52,288 bases of DNA from Escherichia phage vB_EcoM_Bp10, in sequence record MN122072. The stretch is one strand, 5' to 3'. The position numbers were made by a program, and so were the translations under genes. Each line of letters starts with the position of its first letter. The first letter of the stretch is position 1. The notes below the pieces were generated by a model. It was not told where the DNA came from and made no database searches. It saw only the letters and a list, made by a program, of their open reading frames with translations. This document shows positions 33,384 to 34,485 of this stretch, in pieces.

Positions 33384-33419
33384 CAATTAATCTTAGAGCT
33401 GGCTTCAATATTGTAGCCA

Positions 33420-33444
33420 TCTGTAACATTAGTTGGATGTGAAG
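33420..33444 (+). promoter_or_regulatory. copy of conserved motif (perfect core), candidate phage promoter
   Basis: tctgtaACATTAGTTGGATGTGaag. Confidence 0.45.
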
Positions 33445-33459
33445 TAACAGAATACGGAG

Positions 33460-34300
33460 AAGTATTCCGCATGTCATGTTGAAATCATTCTAGAAACATT
33501 TCAGCATGTCAACTAAACATACAGTGTTGTAATGATGTGGCAATCATTGAACTCCCTGTCTTTGGCCGGACAAAGTTCCAGCAACCATGTGTGAAGTAGG
33601 AATATCATTCGAAACTGTTCTTCAACTAAAGCATGTTCAATTGCGACAATATTGCTCCATCTCCTATTATAAAGGCCCACCCACAAGCCGGGAGATATCT
33701 TTGGTAATATTGGAACTTTTGGACATGCTTCTTTCTTTCAATCAGAATTCGAAAGAAGAGAAGAAGTCGGACAATAGGCGACAAAGCCGCGAAACTAATC
33801 CCGTAGCCCGCCCCGATTTTGAGCAACAAATATTGTGACAATATTGTCGCAGTATGGCATGTAAATATTGCTACAAATTGGCATGTTGGAATGTGGCAGA
33901 ATTGTTAGAGGACTAATCACCTCGAAGATACAATCGTCTACCAATCTGGCATGTTAATTTTGTAACAGTATTTGTGCCAATTTCGCATGTAGTATTTAAC
34001 CCAATATTCTTGCAACCCGCATGAATACTGGCTTCCAGCCAAGCGAAGGCTTTATCATCGCATGTAATATTGTGACAATATTGGGATAAAACCCTTTATT
34101 TAAATCATTTAGTTTATTAATTAAATGGTCGGTTTTCTGTACATAGGTATTCAACTGTTTGTGCCAAATACAAACAAGTTGGCTGCTTCTACAGAACTCC
34201 AGTGCTATAAATGTTCGTGCCAATCTGCTGCAATTTATCTCATTTGGCGAGGTAATATTGTATTAGATTGGCATGTCATTCTTTCGATTAGTTGCATGTG
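33460..34300 (+). repeat. iteron-like array: at least 11 copies of (T/C)GCATGT, with TGTGCCAA copies and palindromes
   Basis: GCATGT/GCATGA at about 33466, 33498, 33635, 33856, 33880, 33947, 33984, 34018, 34059, 34270, 34294; TTTGTGCCAA(T/A) at 33971, 34158, 34213; palindrome GACAATATTGTC at 33837-33848; AT-rich block 34085-34140. Confidence 0.5.
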
Positions 34301-34485
34301 AATAAGACCAAATCTCTGTAAATTCTGTGACAGATTTTAGAGAGATTATGTCTCCAAGCTAATCATTGTAGTTCTTCGGCACTTCATGTGTCACATACTC
34401 CCTACAACTTTAAGGTGGGATTAAGGTAAGACAAGACCTCCACAATCGTTCTGTAGGGAGTTTTCCTTTAACTTTGGAGAATAAA

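What the first reader, a model, noticed from the sequence alone, without database searches (positions are those of the whole stretch)
33384..34485. 1.1-kb intergenic region after the RNA polymerase gene with an iteron-like array of GCATGT motifs
At least 11 copies of (T/C)GCATGT, three copies of TTTGTGCCAA(T/A), a perfect palindrome GACAATATTGTC, recurring CAATATTGCTACA and an AT-rich block together resemble a replication origin or a dense array of early promoters and operators. The motif does not match sigma70, sigma54, DnaA or LexA consensus sites as I recall them.
Basis: seen in the sequence. Interest (0 to 1): 0.6.

Follow-up and report, generated by a model that had tools for sequence, protein, structure and literature searches.

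The report
Conserved structured RNA spanning terminal-repeat end
The "iteron-like" GCATGT repeats are mostly the paired arms and loops of conserved hairpins, probably RNA, in a 1.1-kb non-coding unit that phiEcoM-GJ1-like (Chaseviridae) phages carry after their RNA polymerase gene, across the end of their 3-kb terminal repeat; I found no published description of it and its function is unknown.

Summary
The window is a phiEcoM-GJ1-like (Chaseviridae) coliphage. The motif cluster is real: 10 GCATGT on the + strand in 1.1 kb, against 0.19 expected. All Cleopatravirinae examined carry 9-13 copies, almost all on the + strand, at orthologous positions. It does not behave like a dsDNA iteron array. 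Across 12-20 lineages the region contains at least six hairpins supported by compensatory changes. G·U outnumbers A·C 111:9 in the best-sampled module, and the + strand folds at z = -9.5. GCAUGU boxes pair with each other to close long rods. The unit has terminator-like hairpins at both ends and two phage-type promoter-like sites. The right end of the ~3-kb direct terminal repeat (~33768/69) lies inside it, as does a T7-origin-like AT-rich block followed by an invariant GTC primase-type site. Best reading: an undescribed, highly structured + strand leader or non-coding RNA, overlaid on the repeat boundary and possibly an origin. Function, expression and promoter activity are inferred, not shown.

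The parts
33358..33383 (+). t1: terminator-like hairpin GGGAGCTTCGGCTCCC plus T-run, ending the RNAP/66-aa-ORF unit
   Evidence: a terminator is annotated downstream of the RNAP gene in SA91KD
33426..33441 (+). P1: phage-type promoter-like site ACATTAGTTGGATGT|G (predicted +1 = G33441), inside the terminal repeat
   Evidence: GJ1 and SA91KD annotations; 11 + strand matches in the window against 1.5 expected; T at -1 and G at +1 in the sites listed. Activity not shown.
33469..33509 (+). GCATGT boxes at 33469 and 33504, 35 nt apart, enclosing an imperfect palindrome
   Evidence: (I5); positions orthologous in 12 lineages
33549..33578 (+). Hairpin A (GAACU/AGUUC and UGUC/GACA, loop UUUGGCCG)
   Evidence: compensatory changes (UGUC/GACA, UGAG/CUCA, UCAG/CUGA, outer stem flipped in L049); WC 96, GU 1, AC 2
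33629..33730 (+). Rod D: box GCAUGU (33631) pairs with its exact complement ACAUGC (33723, the only 'minus-strand' copy); tip 33663-33694 (CCUAUUAUAAAGGCCC...GCCGGGAG) conserved in the genera displayed
   Evidence: I3; inner helix 33660-65 with 33690-95, 3 of 6 pairs compensatory, 98% paired
33764..33774 (.). Right boundary of the ~3-kb direct terminal repeat (cut about 33768/69 within AAGTC|GGACAA; TCGGAC also at the left boundary, 30774-30779)
   Evidence: homology to the DTR ends of Y2 and PM1 (both copies in the record), Mangalitsa, 4HA13, Myduc (PhageTerm):
33829..33848 (+). AATATTGTGACAATATT near-palindrome (small hairpin; second copy at 34066-34082) overlapping GACAATATTGTC
   Evidence: (I8)
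33857..33990 (+). Long rod built from boxes 1-4 (33857, 33881, 33949, 33985); box 2 pairs with box 3; AATATTGCTACA and TTTGTGCCAAT are opposite arms
   Evidence: MFE fold; box 2 pairs with box 3 in 17 of 17 lineages, box 1 with box 4 in 6 of 17; 67-69 nt spacing in all lineages
33894..33943 (+). Three nested helices at the tip of that rod (UGGCA/UACCA, AUUGU/ACAAU, GAGG/CCUC)
   Evidence: 12 lineages: 92.8% cells paired against 31-55% when slid; 8 of 14 pairs with double changes; 0 of 500 shuffles
34019..34082 (+). GCATGA and GCATGT boxes (34019, 34060) flanking the UGGCU/AGCCA hairpin; best-conserved extended site GCATGTAATATTGTGACAATATTGGG
34086..34125 (.). AT-rich block (88% AT); sequence varies, length and composition conserved
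   Evidence: 35-40 nt and 77-92% AT in 11 lineages
34126..34137 (+). Near-invariant TGGTCGGTTTTC: GTC with G/T-rich flank, the T7 gp4 primase site type
   Evidence: GTC invariant in 6 genera and present in 11 lineages; T7 site 5'-(G/T)2GTC-3' (PMC12839067 abstract) and G/T-rich flanks (PMC6136900); the phage primase-helicase is a gp4 homologue. Use as a priming site is inferred.
34157..34175 (+).
   Evidence: helix 1: 3 of 6 pairs compensatory
34216..34276 (+). Hairpin C: lower stem CGUGCCAAUCU/AGAUUGGCAUG (includes box 34271), apical stem of variable sequence, loop AUUUGGC (34242-34248) complementary to loop B
   Evidence: loops B and C perfectly complementary in 15 of 15 lineages through 5 states; helix 99.3% paired on an alignment not fitted to it
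34286..34300 (+). P2: phage-type promoter-like site GATTAGTTGCATGT|G (predicted +1 = G34300); its -6..-1 is a GCATGT box
34311..34347 (+). Hairpin E at the predicted 5' end of the P2 transcript, followed by invariant CUCCAA (34352-34357) and a GGCAC/GUGUC hairpin (34378-34392)
   Evidence: 4 of 6 pairs compensatory, 99% paired; alignment; invariant columns
34398..34469 (+). t2: CUCCCUACA...UGUAGGGAG hairpin plus UUUUCCUUU, just before the SD (34476) and ATG (34486) of the first early gene
   Evidence: compact version CUCCCU..GGAGGGAG-UUUUCUUU in phiA050, L111, L117, L105

Best explanation
The gap is a conserved non-coding unit whose product is probably a long, highly structured + strand RNA, and it overlaps DNA-level signals.

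Shown:
- The sequence is organised as a chain of long hairpins kept by compensatory changes.
- The GCATGT copies sit in the stems, usually opposite another copy. GCAUGU pairs with GCAUGU over 6 bp through two G·U wobbles, but ACAUGC pairs with itself over only 4 bp. This would explain why copies lie on one strand.
- The 'TTTGTGCCAA' motif is the apical loop of hairpin B, and it base-pairs with the loop of hairpin C.
- The terminal-repeat end lies in the middle of the unit.

Inferred:
- The folded molecule is RNA, started at the phage-type promoter-like sites P1 (33426-41) and P2 (34286-300).
- t1 (33358-83) and t2 (34398-469) act as terminators that bracket the unit.

Committed mechanism, about 35% likely in its specifics:
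- It is among the first products of the phage RNA polymerase.
- The rods make it nuclease-resistant and act as processing sites, like the RNase III hairpins of T7 early RNA.
- t2 meters read-through into the early genes.
- The invariant boxes and loops dock a sequence-specific partner, either another RNA through the kissing loops or a phage or host protein.
- The AT-rich block with the GTC site is used on the DNA as a T7-style replication start.
For: - Conservation: 9-13 + strand copies and 0-1 - strand copies in GJ1, Mangalitsa, 4HA13, Y2, Aioli, PM1, Myduc, phiA050. Copies are positionally orthologous in 12 lineages. Mean column identity is 64% across 6 genera.
- Covariation, hairpin between boxes 2 and 3: 92.8% paired, 8 of 14 pairs with double changes, 0 of 500 shuffles, slid controls 31-55%.
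- Covariation, B-C module on 20 lineages: 90.1% paired, 90 double-change cells against 34 shuffled, slid controls 26-48%.
- Hairpins A, D and E also carry compensatory pairs.
- Loop-loop pairing is perfect in 15 of 15 lineages across 5 states, against 44% for cross-lineage pairings. RNAalifold predicts it independently.
- Strand: G·U 111 against A·C 9 on variable pairs of the B-C module. MFE is -231.8 kcal/mol (z -9.5) for the + strand and -197.7 (z -6.6) for the - strand; the RNAP coding region gives z 0.0.
- Box pairing: box 2 with box 3 in 17 of 17 single-sequence folds, and +335 with +390 in 15 of 15. In the window and Faunus the 5' box is replaced by CGUGCC, which still pairs with the 3' box. 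Box 33631 pairs with its exact complement at 33723.
- Promoter-like and terminator-like sites.
- No Rfam family matches.
Against: - There are no expression data for any Chaseviridae. ICTV states that the family's promoters have not been identified, so P1, P2, t1 and t2 are sequence predictions only.
- Invariance of about 10 boxes across all lineages is more than helix maintenance needs, so sequence-specific recognition is probably also involved.
- In Nefertitivirinae the equivalent boxes (GTATGA, GTGTGA) rarely pair with each other in MFE folds, and model R1 finds nothing there.
- The hairpin between boxes 2 and 3 shows no strand asymmetry (G·U 8 against A·C 6), so single-stranded DNA or a cruciform is not excluded for it.
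- The early-gene block also folds well (z -6.5), so thermodynamics alone is weak evidence.
- I derived the structures from these same sequences, alignment A5 was fitted to a model, and many lineages are close relatives. Independent compensatory events are therefore fewer than the cell counts suggest.
- Z-scores rest on 20 shuffles.
Confidence: 0.6

Rival explanations
1. T7-type primary replication origin. Transcription by the phage RNAP opens the AT-rich block. The transcript primes rightward DNA synthesis, and the gp4-like primase-helicase loads on the displaced + strand and primes at the invariant GTC. The structured RNA would then be a primer or R-loop-forming RNA, as with ColE1 RNA II. This is compatible with the main explanation rather than exclusive of it.
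For: - Same map position as the T7 primary origin, directly after the RNAP gene (T7 layout recalled from memory: Dunn & Studier 1983; Fuller & Richardson 1985).
- AT-rich block of conserved length and composition but free sequence, followed by (T/G)(G/T)GTC with a G/T-rich flank in 11 lineages.
- T7 primase site type confirmed in PMC12839067 and PMC6136900.
- The phage has a gp4 homologue (E = 1e-30 to 5ikn, 6n7i), a family A DNA polymerase and a single-subunit RNAP.
Against: - No phage-type promoter sits directly upstream of the AT block: P1 is about 650 nt upstream and P2 is downstream.
- A 5-nt primase site is weak evidence on its own.
- About 700 nt of covarying structure on both sides of the block is not needed for a T7-type origin.
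- GC skew is uninformative because every gene is on one strand.
Confidence: 0.25
2. An array of duplex-DNA binding sites (iterons, operators or decoy half-promoters) for a phage-encoded protein, possibly the phage RNAP itself, with GCATGT read in one orientation.
For: - The core is invariant in every copy and lineage and changes with phage subfamily, not host: GCATGT in Cleopatravirinae including the Aeromonas-labelled phiA050, GTATGA or GTGTGA in Nefertitivirinae.
- The extended 25-nt motif is GCATGT-aAtATTG-tgACA-AtATT.
- GCATGT equals positions -6..-1 of promoter-like P2 and differs by one base from P1's GGATGT.
- Box-box pairing is not general in Nefertitivirinae.
Against: - No DNA-binding or initiator domain was found in the repeat ORF, the early ORFs tested or the ORFs next to the terminase.
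- Spacing is irregular with no helical phasing.
- A duplex-binding model explains neither the compensatory changes, nor the G·U excess, nor the co-varying loops.
- In two lineages an orthologous box is replaced by a different sequence that keeps pairing.
Confidence: 0.15
3. A genome-end processing, packaging or injection signal. The structures and boxes flank the terminal-repeat cut site and guide terminase or repeat duplication (like T7 concatemer-junction processing or lambda cosB), or halt DNA entry after the repeat (like the T5 injection-stop region).
For: - The repeat's right end maps inside the region at homologous positions in five relatives, with boxes on both sides and the first right-hand box 67-102 nt from the cut.
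- Both repeat boundaries share a GA-rich tract plus TCGGAC.
- P1 would transcribe across the cut site. T7 packaging depends on its RNAP pausing at the concatemer junction (from memory).
Against: - No GCATGT occurs near the left boundary.
- Most of the conserved structure lies 100-700 nt to the right of the cut.
- A terminase small subunit was not identified.
- Nothing here tests cutting or entry.
Confidence: 0.15
4. A cluster of host sigma70 early promoters, like T7 A1-A3, with GCATGT-AATATT read as an extended -10 (TGn + nAnnnT).
For: The geometry TG-N-aAwwTT fits an extended -10, with a purine at the expected start. Early genes need some promoter.
Against: - The sigma70 scan is not above chance (12 against 13.8).
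- -35 elements are absent.
- The invariant GCA is unexplained.
- The Nefertitivirinae cores GTATGA and GTGTGA cannot be -10 elements although host sigma70 is conserved.
Confidence: 0.05

Closest known systems
T7 gene 1 / gene 1.1 intergenic region (promoters phi1.1A/B, RNase III site R1.1, primary origin)
   Same: Lies directly after a single-subunit RNAP gene. Has phage-type promoter-like sites, hairpin RNA elements, an AT-rich block and a gp4-type GTC site. The replisome is T7-like.
   Different: About 1.1 kb instead of about 0.2 kb. Contains at least six covarying rods, repeated invariant boxes and a loop-loop pairing. Straddles a 3-kb terminal repeat end. No promoter abuts the AT block. 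The T7 layout is recalled from memory and was not re-checked here.
phi29 prohead (packaging) RNA
   Same: A phage non-coding RNA encoded near a genome end, whose two loops are complementary and co-vary between relatives.
   Different: No Rfam match of any kind. Much larger. Different phage type (terminase-packaged myovirus with terminal repeats). Whether the loops pair within or between molecules is unknown.
Large ornate phage-associated RNAs (GOLLD, ROOL) and multi-motif sponge RNAs (CsrB/RsmZ)
   Same: Several hundred nucleotides, many conserved helices, phage-borne, function long obscure. About 10 copies of one short motif on a single RNA, as in CsrB.
   Different: No homology. The motif lies mostly in stems, not loops. 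The unit is tied to an early operon leader and a repeat boundary.
T5 injection-stop-signal region
   Same: A long non-coding, repeat- and palindrome-rich stretch at the inner end of a long terminal repeat that carries the first-expressed genes (T5 details from memory).
   Different: In T5 the region lies inside the repeat. Here the boundary splits it. No evidence of two-step injection in Chaseviridae.
Plasmid or phage iteron origins
   Same: Many copies of a short motif in one orientation next to an AT-rich block.
   Different: Irregular spacing, no Rep gene, and motifs embedded in covarying hairpins.

Membership tests
Iteron-type origin | Tandem 17-22 bp direct repeats at regular, helically phased spacing | tested here: not met
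   Spacings are 35, 127, 226, 24, 68, 36, 34, 41, 211, 23 bp with no common phase.
Iteron-type origin | Adjacent gene for a Rep or initiator protein | tested here: not met
   No such domain in the 66-aa ORF or the early ORFs scanned by Pfam or PHROGs. Small ORFs of unknown function remain.
Iteron-type origin | AT-rich unwinding element beside the repeats | tested here: met
   34086-34125 is 88% AT, conserved in length and composition.
T7-type primary origin | Phage RNAP promoter(s) immediately upstream of the AT-rich block | tested here: not met
   P1 is about 650 nt upstream and P2 is 160 nt downstream.
T7-type primary origin | gp4-type primase site on the displaced strand next to the AT block, plus a T7-type replisome | tested here: met
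   (T/G)(G/T)GTC at 34126-34130, GTC invariant. gp4 homologue, family A polymerase and single-subunit RNAP present. Sequence level only.
T7-type primary origin | Replication initiates here | not testable with these tools
   Needs marker-frequency or 2D-gel data.
Sigma70 early-promoter cluster | -35/-10 matches above chance on the coding strand | tested here: not met
   12 sites against 13.8 +/- 4.1 in shuffles; none on the + strand in 33770-34485.
Structured non-coding RNA | Helices maintained by compensatory substitutions | tested here: met
Structured non-coding RNA | Strand-specific signal (G·U tolerated, A·C not; lower energy on one strand) | tested here: met
   G·U 111 against A·C 9 in the B-C module. 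+ strand z -9.5 against - strand -6.6. Neutral for the hairpin between boxes 2 and 3 (8 against 6).
Structured non-coding RNA | Own promoter and terminator; transcript detected | tested here: inconclusive
   Promoter-like and terminator-like sequences are present. No transcript data exist.
Any Rfam family (including pRNA, GOLLD, ROOL) | Covariance-model match | tested here: not met
   Only a chance snoRNA hit at E = 0.59 in 30000-36000.
Terminal-repeat boundary / pac-like site | Physical genome end maps here | tested here: met
   By homology only: ends of Y2, PM1, Mangalitsa, 4HA13 and Myduc align to about 33768/69. PYps23T differs. Ends of this phage itself were not measured.

The most novel reading that the evidence does not exclude
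The region encodes a new family-wide, roughly 0.85-1.05 kb 'ornate' RNA that acts in trans. One possibility is that it assembles into multimers through the co-varying loop B / loop C complementarity, as phi29 pRNA does. Another is that its ~10 invariant GCAUGU boxes sequester a host or phage factor. Either way it would be functionally coupled to the terminal-repeat end it straddles (end processing, replication start or host takeover).
Probability: 0.3. Interest if true: 0.85.

Novelty: new variant of a known kind. Interest (0 to 1): 0.65.

Why it matters
Chaseviridae are used as therapeutic and biocontrol phages, yet their promoters, origin and early programme are uncharacterised. ICTV states that the promoters have not been identified. 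About 2% of every genome in the family is this non-coding unit, which is conserved to a degree comparable with its proteins. Showing that it consists of covarying hairpins with a co-varying loop-loop contact gives a concrete, mutable target. It also links three open questions for T7-like-RNAP phages: how early transcripts are controlled, where replication starts, and how long terminal repeats are cut. If the RNA acts in trans, it would add a new member to the small set of large structured phage RNAs whose functions are only now being solved.

Tried and rejected
- Sigma70 promoter readings: -35/-10 by eye and by scan, and the extended -10 idea. Rejected because the score is not above chance and the core differs in Nefertitivirinae.
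- Sigma54: the GG/GC spacing is 1-2 nt too long and only 4 boxes have TGGCA (sequence reading).
- Host regulator sites (CRP, LexA, TyrR, Fur) by eye: none fit.
- Rfam: nothing.
- Pfam and PHROGs on the repeat ORF, 15 early ORFs and the ORFs beside the terminase: no DNA- or RNA-binding domain.
- A search for a distributed promoter motif in pAh6-C, to test whether the array core tracks promoter sequence: no clear motif, abandoned.
- Whole-region RNAalifold on 6 genera gave no net covariation (+1.31), because MAFFT misaligns stems and box-box pairs dominate. Anchored and model-based alignments were needed.
- MAFFT alignment A3 misplaced two loop C rows, so I replaced it with an anchor-based count and alignment A5 from model R1.
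- The GJ1 genome paper (PMC2223254) is not held. Searches for the T7 origin literature found nothing usable.
- Model R1 found no homologue in Nefertitivirinae.
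Full report
**What the window is.** All long ORFs are on the + strand. The region matches phiEcoM-GJ1-like E. coli, Yersinia and Erwinia phages of the family Chaseviridae. The finding lies between two blocks. Upstream are a single-subunit RNA polymerase gene (30988-33102, PF00940), a 66-aa ORF (33152-33352) and a terminator-like hairpin (33358-33373). Downstream is the first of many small early genes (ATG 34486).

- GCATGT is not enriched in the window as a whole (30 found against 39.5 expected).
- Ten + strand copies fall within 33384-34485 where 0.19 are expected (P = 1.7e-14), against one - strand copy.
- Only four copies are preceded by T or C.
- TTTGTGCCAA(T/A) is exact twice, plus one variant.
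- The palindrome GACAATATTGTC is at 33837.
- CAATATTGCTACA is exact only outside the region (30359, 30562).
- The AT-rich block (34086-34125) is 88% AT.

**Conservation.** Every relative examined has a 1.05-1.35 kb gap after the RNAP gene.
- In eight Cleopatravirinae from E. coli, Erwinia, Pectobacterium, Proteus and an Aeromonas-labelled phage, the gap holds 9-13 GCATGT on the + strand and 0-1 on the - strand.
- The copies sit at orthologous offsets in 12 lineages. The spacing between copies 2 and 3 is 67-69 nt in all of them.
- Across six genera the unique part has 64% mean column identity, with invariant blocks.
- In the distant subfamily Nefertitivirinae (RNAP about 34% identical) there is an equivalent one-strand array with a different core: GTATGA in pAh6-C and VPs20, GTGTGA in MSO-5.
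- phiA050 is labelled as an Aeromonas phage yet carries GCATGT. If that label is right, the core follows phage lineage rather than host.

**The terminal repeat ends inside the region.**
- PhageTerm annotations for Mangalitsa (3,234 bp), 4HA13 (3,120 bp) and Myduc (3,202 bp), and the duplicated ends in the Y2 (2,608 bp) and PM1 (2,665 bp) records, put the right end of the direct terminal repeat at homologous positions (PMC6753284; ICTV profile).
- In the window this is about 33768/69 (AAGTC|GGACAA). The left end is about 30776/77 (CCTATCG|GAC).
- Both boundaries follow GA-rich tracts and contain TCGGAC.
- So 33384-33768 is repeat-internal and 33769-34485 is unique.
- PYps23T, whose ends were mapped experimentally, is an outlier. 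Both of its boundaries fall inside the promoter-like motif ATTAGTTGGA|YGTGAA.

**Promoter-like sites.**
- GJ1 and SA91KD annotate 'phage promoters' here.
- The motif aACATTAGTTGGATnT|G has 11 + strand matches in the window against 1.5 expected. In the sites listed, -1 is T and +1 is G.
- Two copies lie in the region: P1 at 33426-41 and P2 at 34286-300.
- They remain predictions. ICTV says Chaseviridae promoters are not identified, and I found no transcript mapping.
- Sigma70-like sites are not above chance.

**The turning point: hairpins supported by compensatory changes.**
- A first RNAalifold run on six genera gave no net covariation but pointed to nested inverted repeats between copies 2 and 3.
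- With 12 lineages, including metagenomic contigs, three nested helices there are 92.8% paired. Controls with partners slid give 31-55%. Eight of 14 pairs carry double changes, and 0 of 500 shuffles reach this.
- Sliding RNAalifold over 12 and 17 lineages found further compensated helices:
  - hairpin A (33549-78);
  - the inner helix of rod D (33660-65 with 33690-95);
  - hairpin B (34157-75);
  - hairpin C (34216-76);
  - hairpin E (34311-47).
  - TTTGTGCCAA at 34158 is the top of hairpin B.
  - TTCGTGCCAAT at 34214 is the 5' arm of hairpin C, pairing with AGATTGGCATG.
  - AATATTGCTACA and TTTGTGCCAAT at 33971 are opposite arms of the long rod 33857-33990.
  - The lone reverse copy at 33723 is the exact partner of the box at 33631.

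**A co-varying loop-loop contact.**
- Loop B (GCCAAAU, 34163-69) is the exact complement of loop C (AUUUGGC, 34242-48).
- Using fixed anchors and no alignment, the two are perfectly complementary in 15 of 15 lineages through five states: GCCAAAU/AUUUGGC, GCCAAUU/AAUUGGC, GCCGAUU/AAUCGGC, GCCGAAU/AUUCGGC and GCCAAU/AUUGGC. Cross-lineage pairings are complementary 44% of the time.
- I built a covariance model of the B-C module, R1. It finds the module in every Cleopatravirinae locus at E <= 3e-12.
- On its 20-lineage alignment the whole module is 90.1% paired, with 90 double-change cells against 34 in shuffles.
- The loop-loop helix was not part of the model, so it is unbiased. It is 99.3% paired with two covarying positions.

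**Which strand, and which molecule?**
- On variable pairs of the B-C module, G·U outnumbers A·C 111 to 9.
- The hairpin between copies 2 and 3 is neutral (8 against 6).
- The + strand of 33769-34486 folds at -231.8 kcal/mol (z -9.5) and the - strand at -197.7 (z -6.6).
- The RNAP coding region gives z 0.0, but an early-gene block gives -6.5. Stability alone is therefore not decisive.
- I conclude that a + strand single-stranded molecule folds. RNA is the natural candidate because wobble pairs are so common. The evidence does not exclude + strand DNA for some elements.

**What the boxes do.**
- GCAUGU is self-complementary over six pairs if G·U is allowed. Its complement ACAUGC pairs with itself over only four. 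This would explain the strand bias.
- In independent folds, box 2 pairs with box 3 in 17 of 17 lineages. The +335 box pairs with the +390 box in 15 of 15. Outer boxes nest around them in six lineages.
- In the window and Faunus the +335 box is replaced by CGUGCC, which still pairs with the 3' box.
- Against a purely structural role: the boxes never vary, and in Nefertitivirinae they seldom pair with each other. They are probably also a recognition sequence, for a partner I could not identify.

**Boundaries of the unit.** Downstream of P2 the order is hairpin E, an invariant CUCCAA, a GGCAC/GUGUC hairpin, then a GC-rich hairpin with a U-run (34398-34469) just before the Shine-Dalgarno. This order recurs across lineages, and the last hairpin is compact in phiA050, L111, L117 and L105. 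With t1 at 33358, the non-coding unit is bracketed by terminator-like hairpins.

**DNA-level overlay.**
- Between the invariant blocks TTGTGACAATATTGGG and TGGTCGGTTTTC lies an AT-rich stretch. Its sequence is free but its length (35-40 nt) and composition (77-92% AT) are kept in 11 lineages. It is followed by (T/G)(G/T)GTC.
- That pentamer with a G/T-rich flank is the T7 primase site type (PMC12839067, PMC6136900).
- The phage encodes a T7 gp4 homologue (E about 1e-30), a family A polymerase and a T7-like RNAP.
- The position after the RNAP gene matches the T7 primary origin as I recall it. No promoter abuts the block, however, so this remains a plausible but unproven second function.

**Verdict.** The iteron, operator and promoter-array reading is largely replaced by a conserved, highly structured + strand leader or non-coding RNA unit, overlaid on the terminal-repeat boundary and possibly an origin. 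I found no description of it in Rfam or in the literature searched. Expression, promoter use and function are inferred and need experiments.

Noticed in passing
L006 1-2339 and L007 (PYps23T); window 30911-30926 and 33428-33443: In PYps23T, the one relative here whose ends were mapped by ligation-PCR and run-off sequencing as reported in a paper I could read, both terminal-repeat boundaries fall at the same position inside the phage promoter-like motif (ATTAGTTGGA|YGTGAA). Five other relatives have boundaries about 140 bp and 330 bp away. This is either a real difference or an artefact at a 10-nt repeat.
   Followed up: partly
window 30756-30780 and 33740-33774: Both terminal-repeat boundaries share a GA-rich tract followed by TCGGAC (CCTATCG|GAC and AAGTCG|GAC). 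Similar GA-rich runs precede the cuts in Y2, PM1 and Myduc. This is a candidate cut-site signal.
   Followed up: partly
window 30271-30776: A second non-coding block, just left of the terminal repeat. It has two exact CAATATTGCTACA copies, three GAGACTnnAATTGT units (one is GJ1's annotated sigma70 promoter), long T-runs, and moderate fold stability (z -3.9). It lies outside the left repeat copy, so only the right-end RNAP copy would have it upstream.
   Followed up: partly
window 30908-30926: A phage-type promoter-like site (cACCATTAGTTGGTTGT|G) 62 nt upstream of the RNAP start codon, suggesting the polymerase could boost its own gene. It also contains TGTGATTAT, an extended -10-like sequence.
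   Followed up: no
window 19352, 37546, 41463, 41604, 43240, 43572, 48283, 51682: Distributed + strand copies of aACATTAGTTGGATnT|G, each with T at -1 and G at +1 followed mostly by purines. This is a concrete candidate for the still-unidentified Chaseviridae RNAP promoter.
   Followed up: partly
window 33663-33694: The tip of rod D is conserved in the genera displayed. It contains a -10-like TATTATAAA and, read on the - strand, a terminator-like hairpin plus T-run (33689-33674). Myduc shows a compensatory GGC/GCC to GCC/GGC swap.
   Followed up: partly
window 35600-36317: The early-gene block folds far better than shuffles (z -6.5), unlike the RNAP gene (z 0.0). Early transcripts of this phage may be generally structure-rich.
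   Followed up: no
window 33824-33957 and equivalents in relatives: The covariance model of the B-C module weakly matches the rod around boxes 1-3 (24 bits, E about 0.008). This hints that the rods are diverged paralogous modules.
   Followed up: no
window 34297-34305 (- strand): One exact DnaA-box match (TTATTCACA) overlapping the start of the predicted P2 transcript. It is single, and the same position in Y2 does not match it.
   Followed up: partly
L011 2785-3003 (Myduc): Myduc carries a 218-bp tandem duplication inside the repeat-internal half, duplicating a box and the rod D tip.
   Followed up: no
records PP952070 (Staphylococcus phage Pel53) and PP763568 (Aeromonas phage phiA050): Both are close relatives of E. 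coli Chaseviridae: Pel53 is 88% nucleotide identity over this locus, and phiA050 has RNAP 76% identical. The host labels deserve checking. The phiA050 label matters for the argument that the core tracks phage lineage rather than host.
   Followed up: no
L017 3202-3522 (VPs20): In Vibrio phage VPs20 the first gene after the non-coding gap is annotated as an AP2 DNA-binding domain protein. No counterpart was seen in the window.
   Followed up: no
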